This document shows positions 12,750 to 64,000 of a stretch of DNA of 64,000 nucleotides, one piece after another. The notes below the pieces were generated by a model, which was given only the letters and a program-made list of their open reading frames with translations, ran no database searches and was not told the origin of the DNA. Numbering within the stretch: position 1 is the stretch's first letter; each line of letters starts with the position of its first letter. The position numbers and the translations under genes were made by a program. The stretch covers positions 360 to 64,359 of the forward strand of contig JAKALB010000003.1 in the NCBI GenBank assembly GCA_021813365.1, in the 5' to 3' direction. This DNA is from Pseudomonadota bacterium (GTDB taxonomy: Bacteria > Pseudomonadota > Alphaproteobacteria > Rhodobacterales > Rhodobacteraceae).

Positions 12750-12822
12750 TCCCGGCCCGCGCCATCCTTCGCCATCATGCCGCCCCGGCGCCATGCTGCG
12801 CCCGCCTTGCTGCGTCGCGGCG

Positions 12823-12860
12823 AATAAAATTTTACTAAAATCTTGCGCGGCAATTTTACT
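12823..12860. promoter_or_regulatory. Probable LacI-type operator(s) upstream of the sugar ABC operon
   Basis: AT-rich near-palindrome AATAAAATTTTACT(AAAA) at 12823-12840 plus second half-site CAATTTTACT at 12851-12860, in an otherwise very GC-rich region. Confidence 0.6.
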
Positions 12861-12915
12861 TGGCTTACCCTTGCCGGATCGGGGCCGGGGAGAGGCCCCG
12901 CAACGGGAGGATTAC

Positions 12916-14187
12916 ATGAAGCACTTCACCTTCAGCTGGCGCAAAGGCCTGTTGGCCGCCGCCGGAATTCAGCTCTTGACCGCGACCATGGCTCTGGCCA
13001 CGGAAGTGACCGTCTGGTGCTGGGCGCCCGAATTCAACGGGGCCGCCATGAACGAGGCCATCGCGCGCTACACCGCCAGCCATCCGGACGTGAAGATCAC
13101 GGTCGTCGATTTTGCCAAGGGCGACCTGGAACAGAAATTGCAGACCCAGCTGGCCTCGGGCCAGACGGAGGGTCTGCCGGACATCGTTCTGATCGAGGAT
13201 TACGGCGCCCAGAAATACCTCTTGTCCTTCCCCGGCGCGTTCGAGCCGCTGACCGACAAGATCGACTACTCGCAGTTCGCCGATTACAAGGTGGCGCTGG
13301 CCACGGTGGACGGCCAGACCTATTCGCTGCCGTTCGACTCGGGCGCTTCGGGTCTGTTCTATCGCTCGGACCTGCTGGCCGAGGCCGGCTATGACGCCGC
13401 CGCGCTGCAGGACGTGACCTGGGATCAGATCATCGAGATCGGCAAGGCCGTGAAGGCCAAGACCGGCAAGCCGCTGTTCTCGATCGACCAGAATGACGCG
13501 GGTGCGATCCGCATCATGATGCAGTCGGCCGGGTCCTGGTATTTCAACCCCGACGGCAGCGTGCACATCAAGGACAACCCGGTGTTCAAGGCCGCGCTGA
13601 CCACCTGGGTGAAGATGCTGCAAACCCCGGACCTCTACAAGCAGGTCTCGGGCTGGGGCGATTACACCGGTGCCTTCAACAACGGCGATGTGGCGGCCGT
13701 GTTCACCGGTGTCTGGATGACCGGCGGCATCAAGAACAACAACATGCCCGGCAAGTGGGCCGTGGCGCCCACGCCCAAGCTGGATGGCGTGGACGGGGCG
13801 ACGCATTATTCCAACCTGGGCGGATCGTCCTGGTATGTGCTGTCCTCGGCCCCGTCCAAGGATGCGGCCATCGACTTCCTGAAGACAATCTGGGCAGGTG
13901 ACGTGGATTTCTACCAGAAGATCCTGGTCGGCCAGGGGGCGTTCTCGTCCTACCTGCCGGCGCGCAATGGCCCGGCCTATTCCGCCACCGATGATTACTT
14001 TGGCGGTCAGGCGGTCTGGGCCAACTTCTCGGACTGGCAGGCGAAGATTCCGGGCGTGAACTACGGGATCTTCACGAACGAGGCCGATGCGGCCGTCGTG
14101 ACCCAGCTGCCGGGCCTGGTGGCCGGCGGCGACATCGATGCGGCGATCGAGGCGATCGACGCGCAGGTGGCCGCGCAAATCCAGTAA
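12916..14187 (+). CDS. Sugar ABC transporter substrate-binding protein (lactose/beta-galactoside, LacE-like)
   Basis: GGGAGG RBS, signal peptide, VWCW, LPDIV, YSLPFDSG, YRSDLL, NLGGSSW motifs. Confidence 0.9.
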   Translation: MKHFTFSWRKGLLAAAGIQLLTATMALATEVTVWCWAPEFNGAAMNEAIARYTASHPDVKITVVDFAKGDLEQKLQTQLASGQTEGLPDIVLIEDYGAQKYLLSFPGAFEPLTDKIDYSQFADYKVALATVDGQTYSLPFDSGASGLFYRSDLLAEAGYDAAALQDVTWDQIIEIGKAVKAKTGKPLFSIDQNDAGAIRIMMQSAGSWYFNPDGSVHIKDNPVFKAALTTWVKMLQTPDLYKQVSGWGDYTGAFNNGDVAAVFTGVWMTGGIKNNNMPGKWAVAPTPKLDGVDGATHYSNLGGSSWYVLSSAPSKDAAIDFLKTIWAGDVDFYQKILVGQGAFSSYLPARNGPAYSATDDYFGGQAVWANFSDWQAKIPGVNYGIFTNEADAAVVTQLPGLVAGGDIDAAIEAIDAQVAAQIQ

Positions 14188-52253: not shown

Positions 52254-53279
52254 ATGAAAAGACTTCTGTCCAGCATCGCGTTGCTGATGGTGACCACCGG
52301 CCTGGCCCAGGCCGAAGGCGAACTGCAACTGTACAACTGGGGCGACTACACCAACCCCGAACTGATCAAGAAATTCGAGGCCGAGACCGGCATCAAGGTC
52401 ACGATCACCGATTACGACAGCAACGACACCGCCCTGGCCAAGATCGAGGCGGGCGGGTCGGGCTTTGACCTGGTCGTGCCCTCGGCCAACTACGTGCCGA
52501 TCTACATCGAGAAGGGCCTGATCCAGGAGCTGGACCTGTCCAAGATCCCGCATCATTCCAACATCGCGCCGGAATGGATGAATGTGGCCTATGATCCGGG
52601 CCGCAAGTACACGATCCCGTGGCAGTGGGGCTCCACCGGCATGGCAGTGAACCAGAAGGCCTATTCGGGCGACATCAACACATCCGCCATCTTCCTCGAC
52701 CCGCCGCCGGAACTGGTGGGCAAGGTCAACGTCACGCCGGAAATGAACGATGTCCTGGCCCTGGCCACGATGTACATGGGCGGCGAGCCGTGCTCGGAAG
52801 ACGCCGAACTGATGAAGAAGGTCCGCGACAAGCTGCTGGAGGCCAAGCCCAAGTGGCTGTCGATGGACTATGGCATGACCGAGAAGATGTCGAACAACGA
52901 TGTCGTGGCCAGCCTGTACTGGAACGGCGCGATCTTCCGCGCGCGCCTGGCCAACCCGGATGTCAAATACGGCTATCCGAAGGAAGGCTTCCCGCTGTGG
53001 ATGGATCAGGTTGCCCTGCTGAAGGACGCCAAGAACGTCGAGGAAGCCTACAAGTTCCTGGACTTCATCACCCTGCCGGAAAACGCCGCCCTGATCTCGG
53101 CCTTTGCGCGTTACGCCAATGGCATCACCGGTTCCGAAGAATTCATGCCGGCCGACATGAAGGACGCGCCCGAGATCGTCATCCCGGACGAGTTCAAGGA
53201 CAAGGGCCATTTCCTGATGACCTGCACCGGCAAGGCGCAGGATTACATCACCGCGATCTGGACCGAGTTGCAGAAGTGA
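52254..53279 (+). CDS. Polyamine ABC substrate-binding protein (PotD/PotF-like)
   Basis: Signal peptide, LYNWGDY, YDSND, DLVVPS, PKEG..LWMD. Confidence 0.92.
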   Translation: MKRLLSSIALLMVTTGLAQAEGELQLYNWGDYTNPELIKKFEAETGIKVTITDYDSNDTALAKIEAGGSGFDLVVPSANYVPIYIEKGLIQELDLSKIPHHSNIAPEWMNVAYDPGRKYTIPWQWGSTGMAVNQKAYSGDINTSAIFLDPPPELVGKVNVTPEMNDVLALATMYMGGEPCSEDAELMKKVRDKLLEAKPKWLSMDYGMTEKMSNNDVVASLYWNGAIFRARLANPDVKYGYPKEGFPLWMDQVALLKDAKNVEEAYKFLDFITLPENAALISAFARYANGITGSEEFMPADMKDAPEIVIPDEFKDKGHFLMTCTGKAQDYITAIWTELQK

Positions 53280-53294
53280 TCAACACCTGAGACC

Positions 53295-53321
53295 CCGGAG
53301 AGGGCCCCATGCCCTCTCCGG
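53295..53321. other. Perfect 11-bp stem-loop between binding-protein gene and amidase
   Basis: ccggagagggc-cccat-gccctctccgg. Confidence 0.55.
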
Positions 53322-53357
53322 ACCTCTCCTGTCGCGCGACATTTTGGCAAGGTGGAA

Positions 53358-54797
53358 ATGGACCTCTGGGACTGGTCTGCATCGGATCTGTCACGGGCGA
53401 TTGCGGCGCGGCAGGTGGCCCCATCCGAGGTGATGGCCACGGTTCTGGCGCGGATCGCGGCGCTCAATCCTTCGATCAACGCGATCGTGTCGCTGCGCGA
53501 CCCCGATGGCCTGATGGCCGAGGCCCGCCGGGCGGACGATGCGCCGCGCAAGGGTTGGCTGCACGGGCTGCCGCTGGCGGTGAAGGATCTCTGCGCGACC
53601 AGGGGGCTGCGCACCACCTGGGGCTCGCCCCTGTTTGCCGATTGCGTGCCGACCCGGGATGACCTGCTGGCCGCGCGGATGCGGGGCGCCGGGGCGATCT
53701 TCATCGCAAAGACCAACACGCCCGAATGGGGGCACGGCAGCCATACGTTCAACCCGGTGTTCGGGGCGACGCGCAATCCCTATGACCTGACGCGCACACC
53801 CGGCGGCTCCAGCGGCGGGGCGGCGGCAGCGCTGGCGGCGCGGATGGTGCCGGTGGCCGATGGCAGCGACATGATGGGCAGCCTGCGCAACCCGGCCGGG
53901 TTCTGCAATGTCTACGGGTTCCGGCCCAGTTGGGGGCTGGTGCCGACGGATGCCGAAGGCGACACGTTTCTGGCCACGCTGGCCACCGAAGGCCCGATGG
54001 GCCGCACGATCGAGGATGTGGCACGGTTGCTGTCGGTTCAGGCCGGGCGCAACCCCGAAGTGCCGTTCGACCGGCCGGGCGCCGATTTCGCGGCCGGGCT
54101 GGAAGGAGCCAGCCTGAAGGGCAAGCGCATCGCCTGGGCGCGGGACTGGGGCGGCGCCTATGCGATGGAGCCGGGAATCCTGGAGATCTGCGAGGCGGGT
54201 CTGCGGCAGATGCAGGATCTGGGTGCGGTGGTCGAAGAGATCGCCCCGCCCTTCCCGGCCGAGGAGTTGTGGCATGCCTGGATCACCCTGCGCGCCATGC
54301 TGAACGCCAACGGATTCCGCGAAACCCACGCCGACCCGGAAAAACGGGCTCGGGTGAAGCCTGAAACGCTCTGGGAAATCGAGCAGGGGCTGAATCTGTC
54401 GGCTGCCGAGGTCTATGCCGCCAGCGTGATCCGCAGCCGCTGGTATGCAAGGGCGGCGCGGCTGTTCGCCCGGTTCGACGCGCTGGCCCTGCCGGTGGCT
54501 CAGGTCTGGCCGTTTCCGGTCGAGTGGCGCTGGCCGGCCGAGGTGGCGGGGCGGCGGATGGACACCTATCACCGCTGGATGGAGGTGGTGATCCCGGTCA
54601 GCCTGGCAGGCCTGCCCTGCCTGTCGCTGCCCATGGGCCTTGGGCCACCGGGCCCGTCACAGGGCTTGCCGATGGGGCTGCAACTGGCCGGGCCGGTCGG
54701 CGCGGATGCGGCGGTTCTGGCGATGGGCCAGGCCTGGCACCTGGCCACGGACTGGCCAGGACGAAGGCCGCCCGCTCTGCCGCCCGCCCGGAGCTGA
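53358..54797 (+). CDS. Amidase signature family protein
   Basis: GLPLAVKDL, KTNTPEWG, GGSSGGAAAALA, GSDMMGSLRNPA. Confidence 0.92.
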   Translation: MDLWDWSASDLSRAIAARQVAPSEVMATVLARIAALNPSINAIVSLRDPDGLMAEARRADDAPRKGWLHGLPLAVKDLCATRGLRTTWGSPLFADCVPTRDDLLAARMRGAGAIFIAKTNTPEWGHGSHTFNPVFGATRNPYDLTRTPGGSSGGAAAALAARMVPVADGSDMMGSLRNPAGFCNVYGFRPSWGLVPTDAEGDTFLATLATEGPMGRTIEDVARLLSVQAGRNPEVPFDRPGADFAAGLEGASLKGKRIAWARDWGGAYAMEPGILEICEAGLRQMQDLGAVVEEIAPPFPAEELWHAWITLRAMLNANGFRETHADPEKRARVKPETLWEIEQGLNLSAAEVYAASVIRSRWYARAARLFARFDALALPVAQVWPFPVEWRWPAEVAGRRMDTYHRWMEVVIPVSLAGLPCLSLPMGLGPPGPSQGLPMGLQLAGPVGADAAVLAMGQAWHLATDWPGRRPPALPPARS

Positions 54798-54828: not shown

Positions 54829-55503
54829 CTAGCGCGACGAAGCCATCAGCGCCTCGCGCACATATTCGGTGCGGACCCAGTCCTCGAAGGAGATCGGGCC
54901 CTGAGACAGGCGCTGTTCGTAGGCGTCGAGGAACCGGTCGAGGACTCCGGTCTTCGACCAGCGGAAATGCAGGAACCTGGGCGACAGCTGGCGGCGGGCT
55001 TCGGCCGCGGGGCGGCCCTCGATCACCATCTTCCAGATCGCCCCGGCCAGACCGGTGCGGTCGGCGCCGGACTTGCAATGCACCAGGATCGGCCGCGGCA
55101 GGGTGCGATAGGCCTCGATCAGGGCCAGGATGGCGGCGGCATGGGGCGCCTGGCGCGCCGACATCGGCACCACCACCAGCGGCAGGCCCAGGCGGGCGCA
55201 GGCCTCGGCCTCGAACTTGTAGGGGGACTGGTGCTTTGCCCCCCGCAGGTTCAACACCGACCGGATTCCGCGCCTGGCATAGTCTTCCAGACGCGCGGCA
55301 TCGGGATGGTTCGAGCGGTAGAGACCCGGACCGACCAGCGCGAAATTGTGCCAGGGTCGGCGCAGGATGCCATGATCGAACCAGTCGACGAACTGCTGGC
55401 TGCGGCGGCGGTGGTGCGGGTCCGAGATGTCATGGGTGAACCGCGCCTCCAGCCGGCGCTGGATCGAGACCAGCCAGTGATGAATGCCCTTGCCCTTGGC
55501 CAA
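54829..55503 (-). CDS. Cys-based (CX5R) dual-specificity/tyrosine phosphatase family protein; start uncertain
   Basis: LYRSNHP, VLNLRG, P-loop HCKSGADRTG. Confidence 0.85.
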   Translation of the reverse strand: MAKGKGIHHWLVSIQRRLEARFTHDISDPHHRRRSQQFVDWFDHGILRRPWHNFALVGPGLYRSNHPDAARLEDYARRGIRSVLNLRGAKHQSPYKFEAEACARLGLPLVVVPMSARQAPHAAAILALIEAYRTLPRPILVHCKSGADRTGLAGAIWKMVIEGRPAAEARRQLSPRFLHFRWSKTGVLDRFLDAYEQRLSQGPISFEDWVRTEYVREALMASSR

Positions 55504-55632
55504 TCGCGCGCCCCTCCGCTCGGGGCCTATGTGGCGCGGAACCGCGCGCGGCGCAACCCGGACGGCGCGCATTTCCCTTTTGCGCGCGCGCACGGGTCAA
55601 GCTATCTGGGGGCAAGCCACAAGGAGAGCCAC

Positions 55633-56661
55633 ATGCAGATCGCAGGCCGCAAGATCGGACCGGACCATCCCCCGCTGGTGATTGCAGAAATCGGCATCAA
55701 CCACGGAGGCGATCTGGGCGTGGCCAAGGAAATGGTTCGCCTGGCCGCCGGCGCGGGCTGCGAGATGATCAAGCACCAGACCCATATCATCGAAGACGAG
55801 ATGACCGACGAGGCGAAGTCGATCTTCCCGCCGAATGCCGATCAGTCGATCTGGCATGTGATGGAACGCTGCGCATTGAGCCTGGACGAGGAGGCCGAGC
55901 TGAAGCGCTACACCGAAAGCCTGGGAATGATCTGGATTTCCACGCCCTTCTCGCGGGCAGCGGCGGATTTCCTGGAAACGCTGGATGTGCCGGCCTACAA
56001 GATCGGCAGCGGCGAGGCCGACCACCTGCCGCTGATCCGGCACATCGCCCGCAAGGGCAAGCCGGTGATCCTTTCCACCGGCATGCAGACGATCTCGACG
56101 ATCCGGGCCAGCGTGCAGATCCTGGAAGATGCCGGCCTGCCCTATGCCTTGCTGGAATGCACCAACCTGTATCCCAGCCCGCCGGAGATCGTCTCGCTGC
56201 GGGGCGTGACCGAGTTGCGGCAGGCTTTCCCCAAGGCGGTCGTCGGGTTTTCCGACCATTCGATCGGGCCGGAAATGGCCCTGGCCTCGGTGGCGCTGGG
56301 GGCCTCGATCCTCGAGCGGCATTACACCGATACGCGCTATCGCAAGGGGCCGGACATCATCAATTCGATGGACCCGGCCGAGCTGCGCTTCCTGATCGAC
56401 CGGTCGAAGGAAATCTGGACCGCGCTGAACAATCCCAAGACGCGGACCGCGCCCGAGGAGGACGTGTATCGCTTTGCCCGCGGCTCGGTGGTGGCCGACC
56501 GCGACCTGCCAGCGGGCCATGTCATCGGCGAGGCGGATATCTGGGCACGGCGGCCGGGTTCGGGCGAGATCGCGGCCTATGACTTCGACAAGGTGGTCGG
56601 ACGGCGGCTGACCCGGATGGTCACGCGGAACACGCAGCTCAAGTGGGCGGATCTGGCATAA
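55633..56661 (+). CDS. neuB: N-acetylneuraminate synthase
   Basis: AEIGINHGG, KHQTHIIEDEM, STPFSRAAA, KIGSGE, SDHS, LERHYTD, C-terminal AFL/SAF domain; AAGGAG RBS. Confidence 0.93.
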   Translation: MQIAGRKIGPDHPPLVIAEIGINHGGDLGVAKEMVRLAAGAGCEMIKHQTHIIEDEMTDEAKSIFPPNADQSIWHVMERCALSLDEEAELKRYTESLGMIWISTPFSRAAADFLETLDVPAYKIGSGEADHLPLIRHIARKGKPVILSTGMQTISTIRASVQILEDAGLPYALLECTNLYPSPPEIVSLRGVTELRQAFPKAVVGFSDHSIGPEMALASVALGASILERHYTDTRYRKGPDIINSMDPAELRFLIDRSKEIWTALNNPKTRTAPEEDVYRFARGSVVADRDLPAGHVIGEADIWARRPGSGEIAAYDFDKVVGRRLTRMVTRNTQLKWADLA

Positions 56662-56671
56662 GGATCCCGGG

Positions 56672-57349
56672 ATGATCCTGTCCACCTCGCACAACTTCCT
56701 GTTCGTGCACGTTCCCAAGACGGCCGGCACCGCAATGACGGCCGCGCTCGAGCCTTTCGCCGTTTCCGGCACGCGGACCATCTGGCGGCGCGCGCTCCGG
56801 CGCTTGCCGCTGCGCGAGGCGCCGGACAGGGCCTATTTCCGCAAGCATGAGACCGCGGCCGACATGCAGCGCAAGATGGGGTCCGAGGCCTTCGCCGGCT
56901 TTCTGAAGTTTGCCGCGGTGCGCAATCCCTTCGACCACGCCGTGTCGCATTACGAATACCTGAAGGAGTTTCGCAATCCCGGGCTGGCCGCCAGGTTCGC
57001 CGAAATGAGCTTTGCGCAATACCTGGATTGGCGGATGACGCGGCACGGGCCCTTCGTGCCATTCTTCACCGTGCTGCCCGACCAGACGCATTGGCTGGTG
57101 GATCATTCCGGGCGCATGCTGGTGGACCGGGTGCTGAGGTTCGAGACGCTGGCCGAGGATTTCGCGGCGTTGACAGCGGAGCTGGGGCTGGGCGCGGTAG
57201 CCATGGCCCGTATCAACCCCACGCGGGCAAAGGCCGCGGGGCGCCGGCTGGACAGTTACTATGACGCGGGCACGCTGGAGCGCGTGCGACGGCTTTATGA
57301 CCGGGATTTCGACCTGCTCGGCTATGCCCGCGACTTGCCGCGGGATTAG
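56672..57349 (+). CDS. Sulfotransferase family 2 protein
   Basis: FVHVPKTAGT (5'-PSB), FAAVRNPFDHAVSHY (3'-PB), LRFETL, YDRDFDLLGY. Confidence 0.85.
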   Translation: MILSTSHNFLFVHVPKTAGTAMTAALEPFAVSGTRTIWRRALRRLPLREAPDRAYFRKHETAADMQRKMGSEAFAGFLKFAAVRNPFDHAVSHYEYLKEFRNPGLAARFAEMSFAQYLDWRMTRHGPFVPFFTVLPDQTHWLVDHSGRMLVDRVLRFETLAEDFAALTAELGLGAVAMARINPTRAKAAGRRLDSYYDAGTLERVRRLYDRDFDLLGYARDLPRD

Positions 57350-58086
57350 GTTTCGTAACCGAAGGTATCGAAGATCGCCCGATCGCGAACCAGGAGGGCA
57401 GCTTTCTGGGCAGGGTTCAGCGCCTGGGCCGCGGCCGTGCGGTCGCTGCGGTGGCTGCCCTTGGCGTCGGTCATATGCGCCAACAGGTCCACACCGGCCC
57501 GTTCCGACAGGCGGGCCAGATCCTGGGCCAGGTTTTCATAGCGGATCACGAAATCCGGGCGGCGGCGATCGAACAGATAGGGCAGGTTCGGGGACGGCAG
57601 CGCCAGGCCACGATCGATCATGCTGGACAGCGACACATCGCCGCCCGCAAGACGCTTGTGATGCCAGGCCCAGGAGACCAGCTGTTCATAGGGATGGCGC
57701 ACCATGGTCACCAGATAGGCGCGGGCCAGCATGGCGCCGCCGCCGCGGCGGCGGATGTCCTGTGGCGTCATGTGGTTGAAGTAGCGCGCCGAAATCTTCG
57801 AGTAGAGCTTGCCATGCCCGCCGGGCAGCCAGCGTCCCGGCACACGGCCCGTAGCGCGGTAGATGGCAAGGTCGGCAAGATAGCGCCGCTCGACCAGGCC
57901 AAGCCAGGCCCAGTTTTCCGGCGGGCGGCCGCCAGCCTCGGCCCGTTTCCGTTCGTCTTCGGGAAGCAGGGGGGTGATGATGTCGGACTCGCTACCCGGC
58001 GCACAGGACAACGCGATTTCGACCGAAGTCGAGGCCGTCTTGTGCGGCTTGATGAACAGAAGATTCTGGGCGGCCAGATAGATCAT
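57346..58086 (-). CDS. Sulfotransferase family 2-like protein
   Basis: FIKPHKTASTS, VRHPYEQLVSW, IRYENL, DRAIFDTFGY. Confidence 0.8.
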   Translation of the reverse strand: MIYLAAQNLLFIKPHKTASTSVEIALSCAPGSESDIITPLLPEDERKRAEAGGRPPENWAWLGLVERRYLADLAIYRATGRVPGRWLPGGHGKLYSKISARYFNHMTPQDIRRRGGGAMLARAYLVTMVRHPYEQLVSWAWHHKRLAGGDVSLSSMIDRGLALPSPNLPYLFDRRRPDFVIRYENLAQDLARLSERAGVDLLAHMTDAKGSHRSDRTAAAQALNPAQKAALLVRDRAIFDTFGYET

Positions 58087-58165
58087 TCGGGGCACCGGGC
58101 GGGCAACTTGTGCTTTCCCTAGACAGACCCTATCCAGCTTGGCAAGCGGTCAATCGGATGGGTGC

Positions 58166-60211
58166 ATGGCGCAGTCACGCAGCGGCGGAGCATATCGCCC
58201 CGAAATCGACGGGCTGCGCGCCATCGCGGTCCTGTCGGTCATCGCCTATCATCTGGGCTTGCCTGGCGTCCGGTCGGGCTATGCCGGCGTGGATGTGTTC
58301 TTCGTCATCTCCGGTTTTCTGATCGGGGGGATCGTGCTGCGCGAACGGGCCGAGGGCACGTTCACCTATCGCCGGTTCTATGCCCGGCGGGTGCGCCGCA
58401 TCCTGCCGGCCCTGTGCGCGACGATGCTGGTGATCCTGCCCTTTGCCTGGGCGGTGATGACCCCGCATCAACTGCGCTATTACGGCGGGGCGGTGGTGTC
58501 GACCCTGGCCTTCCTGTCAAATGTCTGGTTTTACAACCTCATCGACTACTTCAACCCTGATGCCCTGCTGGATCCGCTGCTGCACACCTGGAGCCTGGGG
58601 GTCGAAGAGCAATTCTATCTGCTGTTTCCGCCGCTTGTCGCGCTGGTGGCCAGGCTGGGCCGGCGGGCGATGGGTCCGGTGCTGGCGGGGCTGGCGCTGG
58701 CAAGCCTGGCGGTGACGCTGGCCACATCCGGGATGCGGCCGACGCTGTCGTTCTACATGCTGCACAGCCGGATGTGGGAATTGCTGGGAGGCGTTCTGGC
58801 GGCCATGGCGCTGCCCCGCGCCGCGCGGCTGCCACGCGCCTGGGCGGGGATTCTGGCCGCATCGGGCCTCATCCTGACCCTGGCCGGCGTACTGGCCCTG
58901 CCCGCGCCGCGCGGCTGGCCGGGCCCGCTTACGCTGATCCCGGTGATCGGCGCGGTGCTGATCGTCCTGTTTGCATCGTCCGGCCCGGCCCGCTGGATCC
59001 TGGCCAGCCCACCGTTCCGCTCCGTAGGGCTGATTTCCTATTCGGCCTACCTGATCCATCACCCCCTGATCGTCCTGCTGGCGATTTCCGGACATGAGGT
59101 CACCACCATCCCGGGCAAACTGGCGATTCTGGTCATCACCCTGGCCCTGGCCGGACTGAGCTGGGCGATGATCGAGCAGCCCTTCCGCCGCCATGGCCCA
59201 CTGCCCCTGGCGTTGCGGCGCAGCCTGGTCGCGGCCGTCGCGGGACTGGCCGTCTTTGCCCTGGGCGGCCATCTGACCAAGGGCTACCCATTCCGCCTGC
59301 CCCAGGCCGCGCGCGCGGTTCTGGCCTATGCCGACAGCCGCTCGCCCACCCATGCCAGATGCGCCCTGGGTCGGGCCGAGGCCCTGCAGATCGACCCCGA
59401 CCGGGCCTGCCTGCACAATCCGGACGCCAGGGGCCCCGCCGTCGTCATCTGGGGCGACAGCCATGTCTCGGTGCTGACCGATCAACTGGCCCGGGCGCTA
59501 CCCGAGCTGCCGATCCGCGAATTCTCGCTGGGAGGTTGTCCGCCGATTCCGGATGCGCTGAACATCCTGCAGCAGACCAATGCGCCGGTGCGGATGTCGG
59601 AGGCCTGCGCCTGGTACAACAAGACCCTGCGCGACTGGATCCTGGCGCACGACGAGGTGAAAATCGTGGTCCTTTATGCCTACTGGACGAACTACACCGA
59701 GCGCCGCGCCTTTGACACCCGGGCAGGCCTTGTGCTGGCCGACAAGCTTTATGCCGTTCCGACGGATGCGCCGCCGGATCAGGACGACGCGGCGCGTCTG
59801 GCCGGGCTGACGGCGCATCTCGCCCGGCTGGTGAATGACCTGCGTGCCGCGGGAAAACAGGTTCTGGTGGTCGACCCCTTGCCGATCGGCGCCTGGGATG
59901 TGCCGCAGGATGTGGCCCGGATCATCTGGTCTACCGGCACGGTCCCCCAGCACCTGTCCTATCCCAGGTCCGCCTTCGACGATTACGCGGCCACGGCCCG
60001 GGCCATGCTGGCGGCCGCAGTGACCGGGCCGGGAACCCAGAGGCTGGACCTGTCGGACCGCCTGTGCAGCCAGGCCGAGGGCTGTCTGGTGTTCGACGGG
60101 GCGGCGCCCCTGTTTTTCGACACCAACCACCTGTCGCAGCCCGGCGTGGCGCGGATCGTGCCGGGGCTCGCGCTTGCCATCCGCGCCATCGCCGGCCGCC
60201 TGTCCCCGTGA
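58166..60211 (+). CDS. AT3-SGNH fused O-acyltransferase (OafA-like)
   Basis: YRPEIDGLRAIAV, GVDVFFVISGFLI, FYARRVRRILP, HTWSLGVEEQFY, WGDSH (SGNH), DTNHLS. Confidence 0.9.
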   Translation: MAQSRSGGAYRPEIDGLRAIAVLSVIAYHLGLPGVRSGYAGVDVFFVISGFLIGGIVLRERAEGTFTYRRFYARRVRRILPALCATMLVILPFAWAVMTPHQLRYYGGAVVSTLAFLSNVWFYNLIDYFNPDALLDPLLHTWSLGVEEQFYLLFPPLVALVARLGRRAMGPVLAGLALASLAVTLATSGMRPTLSFYMLHSRMWELLGGVLAAMALPRAARLPRAWAGILAASGLILTLAGVLALPAPRGWPGPLTLIPVIGAVLIVLFASSGPARWILASPPFRSVGLISYSAYLIHHPLIVLLAISGHEVTTIPGKLAILVITLALAGLSWAMIEQPFRRHGPLPLALRRSLVAAVAGLAVFALGGHLTKGYPFRLPQAARAVLAYADSRSPTHARCALGRAEALQIDPDRACLHNPDARGPAVVIWGDSHVSVLTDQLARALPELPIREFSLGGCPPIPDALNILQQTNAPVRMSEACAWYNKTLRDWILAHDEVKIVVLYAYWTNYTERRAFDTRAGLVLADKLYAVPTDAPPDQDDAARLAGLTAHLARLVNDLRAAGKQVLVVDPLPIGAWDVPQDVARIIWSTGTVPQHLSYPRSAFDDYAATARAMLAAAVTGPGTQRLDLSDRLCSQAEGCLVFDGAAPLFFDTNHLSQPGVARIVPGLALAIRAIAGRLSP

Positions 60212-60242: not shown

Positions 60243-61364
60243 ATGAACCGTTCACTGCTTTTCGTCACCGGAACCCGCGCCGATTTCGGCAAGCTGGAGC
60301 CTTTGGCCGTGGCCGCGCGCGATGCGGGAATGGCGGTCAGCTTCTTTGTGACCGGCATGCACATGCTGGAACGCTATGGCCTGACCAAGGTCGAGGTGCA
60401 CCGGATGCCGGGTGTCACGGTGCACGAATTCCTGAACCAGCGGCCCGGCGATCCGCAGGACATGATCCTGGCCAAGACGGTTGTCGGCTTTTCCGACTTC
60501 CTGCAGGAACATCGGCCCGATCTGGTGGTGATCCACGGCGACCGGATCGAGGCCCTGGCATGCAGCCTGGTCACCGCGACCAACTATGTCAGGTCCGCCC
60601 ATATAGAGGGCGGCGAAGTCTCCGGCACGATCGACGAGGTGTTCCGGCACTGCAACACCAAGCTGGCGGGGCACCACTTCGTCTCGTCCGAGGCCGCCGC
60701 CCGGCGGGTGATGCGGCTGGGCGAACCGGCCGCATCCGTGCATGTGATCGGCTCGCCCGAACTGGATTTTCACGCCAGACCCAGCGGGGTCAGCCTGGAT
60801 CAGGTGCGAGCGCGTTATGCCATTCCCTTTGCCGATTACGGGATCGCGGTGTTCCATCCGGTGACCTCCGAGGCTGCGACGATCGGCGCACAGGCCGAAG
60901 GGCTGTTTGGCGCACTTGCGGCATCGGGGCGGAATTTCGTGGTGATCGCGCCCAACAACGATCCCGGATCCGAGGCGATCTTTCAGGTGCAAGAGCGGCT
61001 GCCCGCCGAACGGTTCCGGCTGATTCCCTCGATGCGCTTTGCCTATTTCTCGGAACTGATGCGCAATGCGCGGGTGATGGTGGGCAATTCCAGCGCCGGG
61101 GTGCGCGAAGCGCCGTTCCTGGGGGTGCCAAGCCTGGACATCGGCACAAGGCAGACCAACCGCGCCGAGGCGCCATCCCTTTTCAGCGCGGCGGCAGATG
61201 ACCGGGCGGCCATCGCCGGATTCCTGGACCGGGAATGGGGCAAGACCTATCCGCGGCACACCGCATTCGGCGTAGGCAGGGCGGCGGACCGCTTCGTGGA
61301 GGTGCTGCGCGATCCCGGCTTCTGGACCGCGCCGTTGCAGAAAGAGTTCAGCGAGATTGGCTGA
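60243..61364 (+). CDS. neuC: UDP-N-acetylglucosamine 2-epimerase (hydrolysing)
   Basis: VTGTRADFGK, TGMH, HGDRIE, HIEGGEVSGTID, FHPVT, GNSSAG. Confidence 0.93.
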   Translation: MNRSLLFVTGTRADFGKLEPLAVAARDAGMAVSFFVTGMHMLERYGLTKVEVHRMPGVTVHEFLNQRPGDPQDMILAKTVVGFSDFLQEHRPDLVVIHGDRIEALACSLVTATNYVRSAHIEGGEVSGTIDEVFRHCNTKLAGHHFVSSEAAARRVMRLGEPAASVHVIGSPELDFHARPSGVSLDQVRARYAIPFADYGIAVFHPVTSEAATIGAQAEGLFGALAASGRNFVVIAPNNDPGSEAIFQVQERLPAERFRLIPSMRFAYFSELMRNARVMVGNSSAGVREAPFLGVPSLDIGTRQTNRAEAPSLFSAAADDRAAIAGFLDREWGKTYPRHTAFGVGRAADRFVEVLRDPGFWTAPLQKEFSEIG

Positions 61365-62622
61365 GGCCCTGCCCACGGTGTTGCGTGCCTATCTTGGGGC
61401 CACGACCCTGCTGGAACCGGTCGCGCCATGGGTGCTGCGCTGGCGGTTGCGGCGGGGCAAGGAAGATCCGGTGCGCTGGCGGGAAAAACTGGGGGCGCCC
61501 AGTGCGCCGCGTCCGGAGGGCCAACTGGTCTGGATGCATGCGGTGGGGCTGGGCGAGGTTATGGCGCTGCGCGGGCTGATCGCGCGGATGGCCGGCGCAA
61601 GACCCGACCTGTCCTTCCTGGTGACATCAACCGCGCGATCCAGCGGTGAAGTCTTTGCCCGCAACCTTCCGGCGCACACGCAGCACCAGTATCTGCCGCT
61701 GGACCTGCCCGGCGCTGCGGCGCGCTTTCTGGCGCATTGGCGTCCGGACCTGTCGGTCTGGGCCGAACAGGATCTCTGGCCGGGGCTGGTGGCCCGCGCC
61801 CTGTTGCGGGATGTGCCGGTGGCGCTGGTGAATGCACGGATGGATGCGACGAGCTTTGCCGCACGCAACCGCTGGCGTGGTGTCTATGCGCCGTTGCTGG
61901 CGCGCATGTCCTGCCTGTCGGCGCAGGACGCGGTCAGCGCGCGGCATCTGGAACGGCTCGGCGGGCGGAATGTGGCGGTGACGGGCACGCTGAAGGCCGC
62001 AGCGCCGCCTCTCGGCCATGATGCCGGGCGGCTGGCGGCGATGCGGGTGGCCACGGCGGGGCGGACGCTCTGGCTGCTGGCGTCCTCGCACCCCGAAGAC
62101 GAGGCGGTGGCGCTGGCCGCGCATCGCCTGCGGTTGGCGTCCGACCCGGGCAGCCTGCTGCTGATCGTGCCGCGTGACGTGCGACGGGGAGAGAACTTGG
62201 TTCGCGCGGCGGGGGCGGCAGGGCTGCGGGCGGCGCGGCTCGGTCAGGTGACGGCGCCGGAAGCCGGGGTGCAGGTCTTTGTCGCCGACAGCTATGGCGA
62301 GATGGGCCTGTGGCTGCGACTGTGCCCGGTGGCTCTGATCGGCGGCACCTATGGGCCGGTCGAGGGGCATAACCCGTGGGAGGCGGTGCGGCTTGGCGCG
62401 GCCGTGCTGCACGGGCCGCGGGTCGCCAATTTTCAGGGCGATTACCGGGCTTTGGGTCCACAGGGCGCGCTGATGTGCCCCGATCCGCAGGCGGTGGCCT
62501 CGGCCCTTGCCCGCGACTTCACGGCCCAGCGTGCCCATGCGACGCGGGTGGCCGAAGCCGCCGCCAGGGGGGCCGATCAGCTGGCGGCCAACCTGCTTGC
62601 TCTGATCGGGAGGCGAGGATGA
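61357..62622 (+). CDS. GT30 Kdo-transferase (WaaA)-like glycosyltransferase, paralogue 1
   Basis: WMHAVGLGE, HQYLPLD, LWP, ASSHPEDE, VPRD, DSYGEM, GHNPWEA; TTG start overlapping neuC. Confidence 0.85.
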   Translation: MAEALPTVLRAYLGATTLLEPVAPWVLRWRLRRGKEDPVRWREKLGAPSAPRPEGQLVWMHAVGLGEVMALRGLIARMAGARPDLSFLVTSTARSSGEVFARNLPAHTQHQYLPLDLPGAAARFLAHWRPDLSVWAEQDLWPGLVARALLRDVPVALVNARMDATSFAARNRWRGVYAPLLARMSCLSAQDAVSARHLERLGGRNVAVTGTLKAAAPPLGHDAGRLAAMRVATAGRTLWLLASSHPEDEAVALAAHRLRLASDPGSLLLIVPRDVRRGENLVRAAGAAGLRAARLGQVTAPEAGVQVFVADSYGEMGLWLRLCPVALIGGTYGPVEGHNPWEAVRLGAAVLHGPRVANFQGDYRALGPQGALMCPDPQAVASALARDFTAQRAHATRVAEAAARGADQLAANLLALIGRRG

Positions 62623-63935
62623 GCCGCTTCCCCTCGCCGCGGTTGCGGCGGATGCTGTGGCTTTACAAGGCGGCCTGGGTGCTGCTGTTTCCCGCGATCC
62701 TGGCCTATCTGGCCTGGCGCGGGCGCAAGGATGCGGAATACATGGCGCATCTGGGCGAACGTTTCGGCGGGCATGCGCCAATGCCGGGGGCGGTCTGGGT
62801 CCATGCGGTGTCGCTGGGTGAACTGCGCTCGGCCGTTCCCCTGATCCGGGCGCTGCTGGCGCGGGGCGAGACCGTGGTGACCAGCCATTTCACCCCGGCC
62901 GGGCGACGCGAATGCCAGCGCATCTTTGCGGCCGAGATTGCCGCGCGCCGGCTACGCCCGGTCTGGGTGCCCTTCGAATTCCACTGGTGCCATGCCCGCT
63001 TCCTGCGCGCCTTTGCTCCGAAATTCGGCCTGGTGATGGAGATCGAGGTCTGGCCGCAGATGATCCTGTCGTGCCGCAGGGCCGGGGTGGCGCTGTATCT
63101 GTGCAACGCGCAGTATCCCGCGAAAAGCTTTGCCCGGGATCAGGGCCGCGCCCGAGCCGATCTGATGGCGGGCTTTGCCGGCGGTCTGGTGAAATCGGAC
63201 CTGCAGCGCCAGCGCTTTGCGGCGACCGGGCTGGCGCCCATCGCCGTCACCGGAGAACTGCGGTTCGACCAGCCGATTCCGGCGGCGCAGACGGCACCGG
63301 GCCAGGCCCTGCGCGCGCGCCTGCAGGCGCAGGGAAGGGCCGCCTTCACCATCGCCTCGGCCATCGAGGGCGAAGATGCGTTGTATATCGAGACGATCCG
63401 AAAGGTCCGGGCCGCCTGGCGCGCGCAGGGTCTGCCCGCGCCGCTGTTCGTCTATGTCCCGCGCGCACCCGAGCGGTTCGATGCGGTGGCCGGATTGCTC
63501 ACCCGGGCCGGACTGAGATTGCTGCGACGATCGGCGGACATCGCGGCAGATCTGTGGACTGCCGATGATCTGTCGGGGGTCGATGTGCTGTTGGGCGACA
63601 GCCTGGGCGAGATGTATTTCTACCTGTCGATCGGCGATCTGGCCATCGTGGGCGGCGGCTACATGCCCAAGGGTGCGCACAACATCAGCGAGCCCCTGGC
63701 GCTGGGCAAACCGGTGATCGTGGGCCCCTGCACCTGGACCATCGAATATCCGGCGGTCGAGGCCTGCGCCGCCGGTGTCTGCACGGTCGTGCCACCCGAA
63801 GACCTGGCCGATGCCCTGGCTCCCCGCGCACCGCGCCCGTCGCCCCAGGCCATTGCGGCCTTTCTCGCCGCCCATTCCGGCGCCGTGGCCAGAACCCTTG
63901 CCGCGCTGGATCAGTTCACTGCCGCAAAGGCATAG
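62619..63935 (+). CDS. GT30 Kdo-transferase (WaaA)-like glycosyltransferase, paralogue 2
   Basis: WVHAVSLGE, EIEVWP, GELRFD, VPRAPERF, DSLGEM, AHNISEP; ATGA overlap with paralogue 1. Confidence 0.85.
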   Translation: MSRFPSPRLRRMLWLYKAAWVLLFPAILAYLAWRGRKDAEYMAHLGERFGGHAPMPGAVWVHAVSLGELRSAVPLIRALLARGETVVTSHFTPAGRRECQRIFAAEIAARRLRPVWVPFEFHWCHARFLRAFAPKFGLVMEIEVWPQMILSCRRAGVALYLCNAQYPAKSFARDQGRARADLMAGFAGGLVKSDLQRQRFAATGLAPIAVTGELRFDQPIPAAQTAPGQALRARLQAQGRAAFTIASAIEGEDALYIETIRKVRAAWRAQGLPAPLFVYVPRAPERFDAVAGLLTRAGLRLLRRSADIAADLWTADDLSGVDVLLGDSLGEMYFYLSIGDLAIVGGGYMPKGAHNISEPLALGKPVIVGPCTWTIEYPAVEACAAGVCTVVPPEDLADALAPRAPRPSPQAIAAFLAAHSGAVARTLAALDQFTAAKA

Positions 63936-64000
63936 CCGAAACGCAGGTAATCGCTGCGATAGAAGGTCTCGACCTTGACCCGCAACGCGGCCTGATCGCC
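63911..64000 (-). CDS. C-terminus of a probable third sulfotransferase family 2 protein (truncated by window edge)
   Basis: Minus frame GDQAALRVKVETFYRSDYLRFGYAFAAVN*; Y..D..xFGY ending matches the other two sulfotransferase-like ORFs. Confidence 0.55.
   Translation of the reverse strand, partial: GDQAALRVKVETFYRSDYLRFGYAFAAVN

What the first reader, a model, noticed from the sequence alone, without database searches (positions are those of the whole stretch)
60243..63935. Two tandem, divergent WaaA/GT30 paralogues coupled to neuC: candidate new sialyltransferase type
Seen: neuC overlaps GT30 no.1 (8 bp), which overlaps GT30 no.2 (ATGA). Both keep the HAV.xGE base motif but depart from canonical WaaA motifs (PRHPER becomes PRDVRR / PRAPER; GNLKFD becomes GTLKAA / GELRFD; ASTH becomes ASSH / ASAI). 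No lpxK or kdsA/B is adjacent, and no recognisable GT29/38/42/52/80 sialyltransferase is in the window. Known: GT30 enzymes transfer Kdo from CMP-Kdo; CMP-Neu5Ac is a chemically analogous CMP-ulosonate donor; I know of no characterised GT30 sialyltransferase. Inference: these enzymes add Neu5Ac (perhaps sequentially) to the LPS core, which would explain sialylated Rhodobacter LPS.
Basis: partly seen in the sequence, partly recalled or inferred. Interest (0 to 1): 0.82.

Follow-up and report, generated by a model that had tools for sequence, protein, structure and literature searches.

The report
Sialic-acid-linked Kdo-transferase-like enzyme pair
Two different relatives of the Kdo transferase WaaA sit in one operon with sialic-acid synthesis genes; comparison across about 150 genomes and metagenome contigs points to the second as an undescribed kind of sialic-acid transferase for the innermost sugars of the bacterial outer-membrane lipopolysaccharide.

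Summary
neuC (60243-61364), GT30a (61357-62622) and GT30b (62619-63935) are translationally coupled by 8-bp and ATGA overlaps. Both GT30 proteins match the WaaA domain but score far below every curated WaaA cut-off.

They are not tandem duplicates. GT30a branches from the alphaproteobacterial waaA-lpxK lineage. GT30b belongs to a separate clade, which I call N-type, rooted among Burkholderiales-like WaaAs.

The neuC-GT30a-GT30b cassette recurs in about 60 species-level genomes, mostly Rhodobacterales, with a neuA-like cytidylyltransferase just downstream.

In an unbiased metagenome sample, 24 of 26 N-type GT30 genes had nonulosonic-acid genes next door, against 0 of 33 canonical WaaAs (p = 1.5e-14). 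Some N-type genes are the only glycosyltransferase in a neuB | GT30-neuA island.

Yoonia (Loktanella) rosea, from a genus whose other genomes carry the cassette, has a published LOS core of only Neu-(2->8)[Kdo-(2->4)]Kdo.

Best reading: GT30b is a CMP-sialic-acid:Kdo transferase, and GT30a is a WaaA-derived Kdo transferase that builds its acceptor. I could not determine whether these genomes also keep a canonical waaA. Nothing has been tested biochemically. I found no published GT30 sialyltransferase.

The parts
55651..56661 (+). neuB, a NeuB-family nonulosonate synthase. The gene call on the identical contig L002 starts 18 bp upstream, at 55633.
   Evidence: PF03102 plus SAF domain. TIGR03569 scores 336 bits, below the 399.65 cut-off. 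74-92% identical in related cassettes.
56672..57349 (+). Sulfotransferase-family gene in the variable slot of the cassette.
   Evidence: PF03567, E = 5e-12.
57346..58095 (-). Sulfotransferase-like gene in the variable slot. It has no Pfam hit but carries an HKTASTS motif.
   Evidence: The assignment is an inference from the motif only.
58139..60211 (+). AT3 plus SGNH O-acyltransferase in the variable slot.
   Evidence: PF01757 and PF19040.
60243..61364 (+). neuC, hydrolysing UDP-GlcNAc 2-epimerase.
   Evidence: TIGR03568 scores 336 bits against a 235.9 cut-off. It directly precedes GT30a in 60 of 65 related loci.
61357..62622 (+). GT30a, the 'G-type': a WaaA-lineage glycosyltransferase with S57G, ExE changed to EQD, and H270D (E. 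coli WaaA numbering). Proposed Kdo transferase.
   Evidence: PF04413. Best NCBIfam WaaA score is 270 against a 617 cut-off. It forms a 94%-bootstrap clade nested within canonical alphaproteobacterial waaA-lpxK genes. Motifs.
62619..63935 (+). GT30b, the 'N-type': a WaaA-fold glycosyltransferase that has lost R154, H241, H270 and the FNF motif. Proposed CMP-Neu5Ac:Kdo sialyltransferase.
   Evidence: PF04413. NCBIfam score 338 against a 524 cut-off. AlphaFold2 model has pLDDT 92, and its best PDB match is WaaA 2xci. Clade has 88% bootstrap support. Nonulosonate genes lie next to 24 of 26 clade members against 0 of 33 canonical WaaAs.
63911..64000 (-). 3' end of a third sulfotransferase-like gene. 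The neuA-like CMP-nonulosonate synthetase follows it just outside the window.
   Evidence: L002 genes at 12555-13256(-) and 13260-13970(-). The cytidylyltransferase matches PseF/NeuA-type models better than KdsB, 94.6 against 41 bits.

Best explanation
**What the operon is.** It is an LPS inner-core module that makes and installs sialic acid.

**Donor synthesis.** NeuC, NeuB and the neuA-like enzyme just beyond the window make CMP-Neu5Ac. This step is well supported.

**GT30b.** It belongs to a GT30 subfamily I call N-type. That subfamily evolved from Kdo transferases and is an inverting GT-B enzyme. I propose it takes a CMP-nonulosonate instead of CMP-Kdo and attaches the sugar alpha-glycosidically to an inner-core Kdo. 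The 2->8 position on Kdo I is the model, as in the Yoonia rosea LOS. This is inferred from gene context and clade-specific residue changes.

**GT30a.** It is an offshoot of the alphaproteobacterial WaaA lineage. It keeps the residues that canonical WaaAs have (R154, K208, H241, NF). It most likely transfers Kdo to lipid IVA or to Kdo-lipid IVA and so creates GT30b's acceptor. This is inferred. Whether GT30a is the cell's only WaaA or an extra copy is unknown.

**Coupling and decoration.** The overlapping stops and starts of neuC, GT30a and GT30b would keep the three proteins co-expressed. The O-acyltransferase and sulfotransferase-like genes in the variable slot probably decorate the product.
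For: 1. **Conserved cassette.** The cassette recurs in 71 related genome loci. GT30b follows GT30a in 61 of 67 assessable loci and neuC precedes GT30a in 60 of 65. The same holds in six contigs found by protein look-up.
2. **N-type clade.** GT30b's clade has 88% bootstrap support and sits inside Burkholderiales-type canonical WaaAs.
3. **Association with nonulosonate genes.** In a metagenome sample chosen only by GT30 motifs, NeuB/NeuC/NeuA genes flank 24 of 26 N-type genes and 0 of 33 canonical genes (Fisher p = 1.5e-14). Heptosyltransferase genes flank 20 of 43 canonical and 0 of 37 N-type genes.
4. **N-type alone with nonulosonate genes.**
   - L129 is a minimal island, neuB | GT30-neuA, with the GT30 as the only glycosyltransferase.
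   - L115 has neuC-GT30-neuA.
   - L096 has the GT30 between neuC and neuB.
   - L094 and L134 place the GT30 beside pseudaminic/legionaminic-type clusters.
5. **Pair kept in both orders.** The G-type and N-type genes occur as a-b and as b-a (L101, L103-L105, L107).
6. **Catalytic residues retained.** Both proteins keep the CMP-binding and catalytic residues (GE, E98, K/R162, R212, N273, E276 in Aquifex numbering). See; residue roles are from PMC6286764. The GT30b model matches WaaA structures best.
7. **Published chemistry.** The Loktanella (Yoonia) rosea LOS core is alpha-Neu-(2->8)[alpha-Kdo-(2->4)]-alpha-Kdo, three ulosonic acids and nothing else (PMC3210612 section 4.2; PMC5811610). Yoonia and Loktanella genomes carry the cassette (L044, L065, L066, L070-L072, L075).
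8. **No other candidate in this window.** No other glycosyltransferase or known sialyltransferase family lies in the window's cassette or just beyond it.
9. **Donors can be interchangeable.** The GT52 sialyltransferase Lst can use CMP-Kdo (PMC8092323).
Against: - **No biochemical or genetic test.** Everything rests on context and phylogeny.
- **Residue losses may reflect the acceptor.** The kdsB-linked GT30c clade has also lost R154, H241 and H270. So these losses may mark a change of acceptor (no longer lipid IVA) rather than a change of donor.
- **Exceptions among N-type loci.** Two long N-type loci show no nonulosonate gene within 10 kb (L113, L125). L099 and L100 have DegT, a cytidylyltransferase and a GMC oxidoreductase but no NeuB.
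- **G-type alone after neuC.** G-type GT30 occurs without an N-type partner in L076 and L068. GT30a could therefore itself be a sialyltransferase.
- **Alternative transferase in some cassettes.** Five cassettes carry a KpsS/KpsC-like PF05159 gene next to neuB, which could be the transferase there.
- **Non-independent loci.** The loci in the Fisher test are related to one another, so the p-value overstates independence.
- **Genus-level link only.** The Yoonia rosea strain whose LOS was solved was not itself shown to carry the cassette.
Confidence: 0.55

Rival explanations
1. Both enzymes are Kdo transferases, a split WaaA. GT30a adds the first Kdo and GT30b adds a second or third. Neu5Ac is added by an unlinked or unrecognised enzyme, for example a PF05159 protein or an unannotated ORF.
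For: - Every characterised GT30 enzyme uses CMP-Kdo (CAZy knowledge; PMC5811610).
- Both proteins keep the WaaA catalytic set.
- GT30c shows that R154, H241 and H270 can be lost in a kdsB-linked enzyme that presumably uses Kdo.
- Split Kdo pathways exist, such as A. baumannii KdoT (PMC12856342).
- Some cassettes contain PF05159 genes.
Against: - N-type GT30 is embedded in nonulosonate operons of different chemistry, both Neu-type and Pse/Leg-type. In L129 and L115 it is the only glycosyltransferase.
- 0 of 33 canonical WaaAs have such neighbours.
- The window's cassette has no other glycosyltransferase.
- The Y. rosea core needs only three ulosonate transfers (PMC3210612).
Confidence: 0.18
2. 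Both GT30a and GT30b are sialyltransferases acting in sequence, and a canonical waaA-lpxK elsewhere supplies Kdo2-lipid A.
For: - GT30a is fused to neuC by an 8-bp overlap in most genomes.
- Cassette GT30a proteins have lost S57 and H270, which canonical WaaAs keep. The two clade members without neu genes (L047, L061) retain both.
- G-type occurs alone after neuC in L076 and L068.
- Canonical TldD-CysQ-DUF4170-waaA-lpxK loci exist in Rhodobacterales such as Jannaschia.
Against: - GT30a keeps R154, K208, H241 and NF, all of which the nonulosonate-linked N-type clade has lost.
- GT30a is nested in the canonical alphaproteobacterial WaaA lineage.
- The Y. rosea core has a single Neu (PMC3210612).
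- S28 in Aquifex (S57 in E. coli) is assigned to lipid A 1-phosphate binding, not donor binding (PMC6286764).
- No cassette genome was shown to hold a third, canonical waaA (one search was uninformative).
- In the hit lists, genera with named canonical WaaAs and genera with G-type GT30 did not overlap.
Confidence: 0.15
3. The roles are reversed. GT30a is the sialyltransferase, and GT30b is a Kdo transferase acquired by horizontal transfer.
For: GT30a is the gene physically coupled to neuC. G-type alone with neuB and neuC occurs in L076.
Against: N-type, not G-type, is the constant partner of nonulosonate genes across clades and gene orders. It occurs without G-type in at least 10 loci.
Confidence: 0.07

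Closest known systems
WaaA/KdtA, CAZy GT30 (E. coli bifunctional, Aquifex aeolicus monofunctional with PDB 2XCI/2XCU, Chlamydia multifunctional)
   Same: - PF04413 domain and GT-B fold. 2xci is the best structural match to the GT30b model.
- N-terminal membrane-association helix.
- Conserved GE, ExE-WP, PR and GxHNxxE motifs.
- Inverting transfer from a CMP-beta-ulosonate to give alpha linkages.
- Chlamydial enzymes already make 2->8 linkages to Kdo (my own knowledge; the review PMC6286764 notes that WaaA variants transfer 1-4 Kdo).
   Different: - Both proteins score far below all five NCBIfam WaaA equivalog cut-offs.
- Neither sits next to lpxK, DUF4170 or a heptosyltransferase gene.
- GT30b lacks R154, H241, H270 and FNF. 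GT30a lacks S57 and H270.
- Both are embedded in a sialic-acid operon.
Bacterial GT-B inverting sialyltransferases (GT52 Lst/NST, GT80 PmST1, GT38 polysialyltransferase)
   Same: The proposed chemistry is the same: CMP-Neu5Ac donor, inversion, GT-B fold. They are genetically linked to neuABC in many bacteria. Lst also accepts CMP-Kdo (PMC8092323).
   Different: No detectable sequence relationship: Pfam finds only PF04413. None appears among the top 50 structural matches. The proposed acceptor is lipid-A-proximal Kdo, not a distal galactose.
KdoT of Acinetobacter baumannii (PMC12856342)
   Same: A separate enzyme adds the third ulosonic acid of the inner core after WaaA. This sets a precedent for a split inner-core pathway.
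   Different: KdoT is not a GT30 protein, uses CMP-Kdo, and is not linked to nonulosonate genes.
LOS of Loktanella (Yoonia) rosea: alpha-Neu-(2->8)[alpha-Kdo-(2->4)]-alpha-Kdo-lipid A (Ierano 2010, cited in PMC3210612)
   Same: A chemical product that fits a module whose only glycosyltransferases are GT30 enzymes. The genus carries the cassette.
   Different: No genes were assigned in that work. The window comes from a different organism, a freshwater or mine-water Rhodobacter-group MAG, whose LPS is unknown.
KpsS/KpsC (PF05159) and WbbB-type retaining beta-Kdo transferases
   Same: These are other ulosonate transferases found in polysaccharide loci. PF05159 genes occur in some versions of this cassette.
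   Different: Different fold family and a retaining mechanism. None is present in the window's cassette.

Membership tests
GT30 (WaaA/KdtA superfamily) | Glycos_transf_N domain (PF04413) | tested here: met
   GT30a E = 3.9e-49; GT30b E = 7.1e-39.
GT30 (WaaA/KdtA superfamily) | GT-B fold with WaaA as the nearest solved structure | tested here: met
   GT30b model has pLDDT 92 and pTM 0.90. Top PDB matches are 2xci (E = 1.9e-20) and 4bfc. By sequence, both proteins hit 2xci and 4bfc. GT30a was not modelled.
GT30 (WaaA/KdtA superfamily) | Catalytic and CMP-binding residues (Aquifex G30/E31, E98, K162, R212, N273, E276; roles from PMC6286764) | tested here: met
   All align in both proteins. GT30b has R in place of K162.
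Canonical lipid IVA Kdo transferase (WaaA equivalog) | Score above an NCBIfam equivalog cut-off (NF004385-NF004389) | tested here: not met
   GT30a best score 269.6 against 617. GT30b best score 337.7 against 524.
Canonical lipid IVA Kdo transferase (WaaA equivalog) | Residues invariant in canonical WaaAs from E. coli to Alphaproteobacteria: S57, R154, H/R241, H270, F353-N354 | tested here: not met
   GT30a has S57G and H270D. GT30b has R154Q, H241I, H270A and FNF changed to WTI.
Canonical lipid IVA Kdo transferase (WaaA equivalog) | Typical neighbourhood: DUF4170-waaA-lpxK in Alphaproteobacteria, a heptosyltransferase gene in Beta/Gammaproteobacteria | tested here: not met
   None of these is in the window or in 70 of 71 cassette loci. 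In L045, lpxK follows the cassette. The canonical synteny is seen in L007 and L090.
Canonical lipid IVA Kdo transferase (WaaA equivalog) | [quoted passage not shown] | not testable with these tools
   Whole genomes could not be searched. The profile search for canonical WaaA returned only Jannaschia-like proteins.
Known bacterial sialyltransferase families (GT29/38/42/52/80) | Sequence or fold membership | tested here: not met
   No Pfam hit other than PF04413. No sialyltransferase in the top 50 fold matches.
Known bacterial sialyltransferase families (GT29/38/42/52/80) | Use of CMP-Neu5Ac as donor | not testable with these tools
   Inferred only from linkage to neuB, neuC and neuA.
Proposed N-type GT30 subfamily (nonulosonate-linked) | Monophyly, the derived motif set (N[AGS][QN], GE.[RK]F[DE], S..-no-H, W[TG]I), and adjacency to nonulosonate synthesis genes | tested here: met
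   88% bootstrap support. GT30b motifs are NAQYP, GELRFD, SAIEGED and GPCTWTI. Adjacency is 24 of 26 against 0 of 33.
Neu5Ac biosynthesis (NeuC/NeuB/NeuA) | Equivalog-level matches for all three enzymes | tested here: inconclusive
   NeuC is above its cut-off. NeuB scores 336 against 399.65. The cytidylyltransferase matches PseF best, at 94.6 against 205.7. The exact nonulosonate is therefore probable Neu5Ac, not proven.

The most novel reading that the evidence does not exclude
N-type GT30 enzymes, with GT30b as a member, form a widespread and so far unrecognised family of CMP-nonulosonate transferases. They would handle sialic, pseudaminic or legionaminic acids. The family evolved from Kdo transferases and builds LPS inner cores made only of ulosonic acids. 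This would be the first sialyltransferase activity in CAZy family GT30. A more extreme variant, not excluded for lineages other than Yoonia, is that the G-type partner places a nonulosonate directly on lipid A in place of Kdo. I put that variant at about 5%.
Probability: 0.55. Interest if true: 0.82.

Novelty: new variant of a known kind. Interest (0 to 1): 0.72.

Why it matters
**An unassigned enzyme.** The transferases that put sialic acid and related nonulosonic acids on the LPS inner core of environmental Proteobacteria are unknown. The Loktanella rosea authors noted only that the structure 'implies a very different biosynthesis'.

**A new donor specificity.** A GT30 subfamily using CMP-nonulosonates would add a donor specificity to a family thought to be Kdo-only. 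It would explain sialylated cores in the Rhodobacter and Roseobacter groups. [quoted passage not shown]

**Practical use.** It would offer new enzymes for making alpha-2,8-Neu-Kdo-type glycoconjugates.

**Testability.** The motif set (loss of R154, H241, H270 and FNF) and the 24-of-26 against 0-of-33 context split make the hypothesis directly testable with two donors and three lipid acceptors.

Tried and rejected
1. **Is the kdsB-linked third GT30 (GT30c) the general housekeeping WaaA of cassette genomes?** Rejected. The clade has only about 21 protein clusters.
2. **Finding a canonical waaA in a cassette genome by matching contig lengths in hit lists.** I looked for QY30 (3426699), OZ252048.1 (3928576) and others. 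There was no match. The top-120 cap makes this uninformative, not negative.
3. **An lpxK-based look-up of the canonical locus.** Not possible once look-up of encoding contigs was exhausted.
4. **Plasmid database searches with both proteins.** These returned only canonical WaaAs on mislabelled chromosomes, plus GT30c.
5. **Sequencing-run search.** The window organism occurs only in mine-drainage, tailings and groundwater metagenomes, so there is no isolate genome to interrogate.
6. **Literature on the R. capsulatus 37b4 sialyl-trisaccharide (Krauss 1992).** The paper is not held. I did not rely on my memory of its structure.
7. **Promoter and terminator scan.** It found nothing beyond chance and no terminator between neuC, GT30a and GT30b.
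8. **Tandem duplication.** Rejected by the tree.
9. **Three-dimensional placement of the changed residues.** Not possible because model coordinates are not exposed.

Full report
**1. Observation**

ORF listing and sequence reads confirm three consecutive plus-strand genes:
- neuC, 60243-61364.
- GT30a, 61357-62622, with a TTG start 8 bp inside the end of neuC.
- GT30b, 62619-63935, with an ATGA overlap on the GT30a stop.

Both GT30 proteins match PF04413 strongly. They share only 29% identity. They fall far below the cut-offs of all five NCBIfam WaaA equivalogs: 270 against 617 for GT30a, and 338 against 524 for GT30b.

Upstream lie neuB (55651-56661), two sulfotransferase-like genes and an AT3-SGNH acyltransferase. 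NeuC passes its equivalog cut-off and NeuB falls just below its own.

A public contig with identical proteins (L002) extends past the window end. It shows a third sulfotransferase-like gene, a 236-aa cytidylyltransferase and LigT. The cytidylyltransferase resembles NeuA/PseF-type enzymes (94.6 bits) more than KdsB (41 bits).

The window contains no lpxK, kdsB, canonical WaaA synteny or further GT30 gene. Pfam scans of about 38 window ORFs found no known sialyltransferase family. No terminator-like site separates the three genes.

**2. The cassette is conserved**

Look-ups of GT30a homologues returned the same architecture in six contigs. The order is neuB, variable genes, neuC-GT30a-GT30b, then on the other strand a neuA-like gene, usually flanked by an SDR and a GFO/IDH/MocA oxidoreductase.

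A scan of one genome per species returned 71 loci of the GT30a clade. The genera include Tabrizicola, Rhodobacter, Pseudorhodobacter, Gemmobacter, Albirhodobacter, Fuscovulum, Yoonia, Loktanella, Palleronia, Shimia and Roseivivax, plus two gammaproteobacterial MAGs.
- GT30b lies immediately downstream in 61 of 67 assessable loci.
- neuC lies immediately upstream in 60 of 65.
- Both hold in 54 loci.

The variable slot holds Capsule_synth (PF05159), GT92, pyruvyl-transferase, RgpF or methyltransferase genes in other genomes. In the window it holds the sulfotransferase-like and acyltransferase genes.

**3. Two different lineages, not a tandem duplication**

I built an NJ tree of 218 GT30 sequences and a bootstrapped subset of 107 sequences with 200 replicates.

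*GT30a.*
- It falls in a 94%-supported clade nested among canonical alphaproteobacterial WaaAs.
- The next-best relatives in the genome scan, at 41-46% identity, are waaA-lpxK pairs in the TldD-CysQ-DUF4170-waaA-lpxK synteny.
- Sinorhizobium and Jannaschia sp. CCS1 show that synteny too.

*GT30b.*
- It falls in an 88%-supported clade in the other half of the tree.
- Its outgroups are Burkholderiales WaaAs: Polynucleobacter and Pusillimonas by name, and L095 with a heptosyltransferase gene next door.

**4. Residue signatures (E. coli WaaA numbering)**

| Position or motif | Canonical WaaA | GT30b clade (N-type) | Cassette GT30a (G-type) |
|---|---|---|---|
| S57 in HxxSxGE | kept | kept | Gly in all cassette members examined |
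| ExE | kept | kept | E[QR]D |
| R154 in NAR | kept | lost (NAQ, NGQ, NGN) | kept |
| GxLKFD | kept | GE.[RK]F[DE] | K208 kept |
| H/R241 in ST[HR] | kept | lost | kept (STH) |
| H270 in PRH | kept | mostly lost | lost |
| F353-N354 in FNF | kept | W[TG]I | NF kept |

Both types keep the residues shown to bind CMP or to be catalytic in Aquifex WaaA: G30/E31, E98, K162 (Arg in N-type), R212, N273 and E276 (PMC6286764).

S57 corresponds to Aquifex S28, which is assigned to lipid A 1-phosphate binding (PMC6286764).

The only GT30a-clade members without neu genes or a GT30b partner (L047, L061) keep S57 and H270.

An AlphaFold2 model of GT30b is confident, with pLDDT 92. It matches WaaA structures first, 2xci at E = 1.9e-20. 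No sialyltransferase appears in the top 50.

**5. The N-type clade tracks nonulosonate genes**

Contexts of distant GT30b relatives:
- P0127 and P0288, at about 45% identity, again show neuC-GT30-GT30-neuA. One sits beside WaaL, LptFG, LpxL and an MsbA-like gene.
- P0137 lies between neuC and neuB with no G-type partner.
- P0304 lies next to a pseudaminic/legionaminic-type cluster with NeuB, DegT, a dehydratase, a cytidylyltransferase and HisH/F-like genes.
- P0177, just outside the clade, has no such neighbours.

A metagenome scan seeded only with GT30 motifs returned 37 N-type and 43 canonical genes. Restricting to loci with at least 2.5 kb of flank:
- NeuB/NeuC/NeuA homologues lie next to 24 of 26 N-type genes and 0 of 33 canonical genes (Fisher p = 1.5e-14).
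- Heptosyltransferase genes lie next to 20 of 43 canonical and 0 of 37 N-type genes.

Of the N-type loci, 21 have a G-type partner, in both gene orders. At least ten have none.

L129 is a minimal island: neuB on one strand, then an N-type GT30 overlapping neuA on the other, between housekeeping genes. The GT30 is the only glycosyltransferase there.

The loci are not phylogenetically independent, so the p-value is an upper bound on the strength of the evidence. Even so, the pattern spans several subclades, nonulosonate chemistries and gene orders.

**6. Chemistry from the literature**

The LOS of Loktanella (now Yoonia) rosea has a core 'exclusively composed of ulosonic sugars'. Its structure is alpha-Neu-(2->8)[alpha-Kdo-(2->4)]-alpha-Kdo-(2-> lipid A (PMC3210612 section 4.2, citing Ierano et al. 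2010; also PMC5811610). Yoonia and Loktanella genomes carry the cassette. Three ulosonate transfers and a module whose only glycosyltransferases are GT30 enzymes fit each other closely.

Rhodobacter capsulatus LPS is also reported to contain Neu5Ac (PMC9631793).

Full-text searches found no GT30 sialyltransferase in the literature.

Two precedents bear on the proposal. The GT52 sialyltransferase Lst can use CMP-Kdo (PMC8092323). A. baumannii uses a separate enzyme, KdoT, for the third inner-core Kdo (PMC12856342).

**7. Interpretation**

*Shown:*
- The operon structure and its conservation.
- The two lineages and their residue signatures.
- The link between the N-type clade and nonulosonate genes.
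- The WaaA-like fold.

*Inferred:*
- GT30b transfers Neu5Ac from CMP-Neu5Ac to an inner-core Kdo.
- GT30a transfers Kdo and provides the acceptor.

*Main caveats:*
- The kdsB-linked GT30c clade has also lost R154, H241 and H270. The N-type signature may therefore report the acceptor (no longer lipid IVA) rather than the donor. The donor assignment rests on gene context.
- G-type GT30 occurs alone after neuC in L076 and L068, so a sialyltransferase role for GT30a is not excluded.
- I could not establish whether cassette genomes keep a canonical waaA. The profile search was saturated by Jannaschia-like proteins, look-ups were exhausted, and the window organism is known only from metagenomes.
- Genera with named canonical WaaAs and genera with G-type GT30 did not overlap in my limited lists. 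This weakly favours GT30a being the resident Kdo transferase.

**8. Verdict**

The finding is real and more than an annotation curiosity. The most likely reading is a division of labour between a WaaA-derived Kdo transferase and a member of a new nonulosonate-dedicated GT30 subfamily.

- Confidence in the whole model: about 0.55.
- Confidence that at least GT30b uses a CMP-nonulosonate: about 0.65-0.7.
- Novelty: a new variant (a new donor specificity) of a known enzyme family.
- Interest: 0.72.

Noticed in passing
window 56672-57349 (+), 57346-58095 (-), 58139-60211 (+), and 63911 onward (-): The cassette's variable slot in this organism holds up to three sulfotransferase-like genes and an AT3-SGNH O-acyltransferase. 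This suggests O-acylated and possibly sulfated sialic acid or core. Other genomes carry PF05159, GT92, pyruvyl-transferase, RgpF or methyltransferase genes in the same slot.
   Followed up: partly
L003 10635-13068; L001, L004-L006 and 29 of 71 genome loci: An SDR and a GFO/IDH/MocA oxidoreductase flank the neuA-like gene in many cassettes but are absent from the window's version (L002). They may modify the nonulosonate, for example by epimerisation through a keto intermediate.
   Followed up: no
L048 1115-2455 (-); L009 8914-10263; L008 8941-10278: A third, rare GT30 clade (GT30c) is divergently paired with kdsB and a HAD hydrolase. In it the catalytic GE is GD, and R154, H241 and H270 are lost. 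It lies on Marivivens and Aestuarium plasmids near lptC, lptD and an O-antigen ligase gene. In Rhodobacter sp. YIM 73028 it lies 4 kb upstream of the cassette.
   Followed up: partly
P0155 (866 aa, metagenomic protein): A natural fusion of a variant GT30 module with a canonical-looking WaaA module. This sets a precedent for two GT30 activities working together.
   Followed up: no
L045 10001-17202: The cassette is followed directly by lpxK-lpxB-msbA. The contig is binned as a Prochlorococcaceae cyanobacterium, and its LpxK is only 39% identical to Jannaschia LpxK. Either the contig is mis-binned or the cassette was transferred horizontally beside lipid A genes.
   Followed up: partly
L099 6668-11320; L100: An N-type GT30 of the P0143 subclade lies next to a DegT aminotransferase, a CTP_transf_3 cytidylyltransferase and a GMC oxidoreductase, with no NeuB within 10 kb. 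This may be a pathway for an amino-modified ulosonic acid.
   Followed up: partly
window 54829-55593 (-): A dual-specificity/PTP-like phosphatase gene sits between the amidase gene and neuB, and is conserved at that position in L002. Any relation to the cassette is unknown.
   Followed up: no
L004 and window 52254-54797: The cassette occupies the same chromosomal site in the window and in Rhodobacter sp. SGA-6-6, between the amidase/ABC-transporter genes and LigT. It sits at other sites in QY30 and other genomes, often with IS elements nearby (L001, L005, L006). This is consistent with a mobile island.
   Followed up: no
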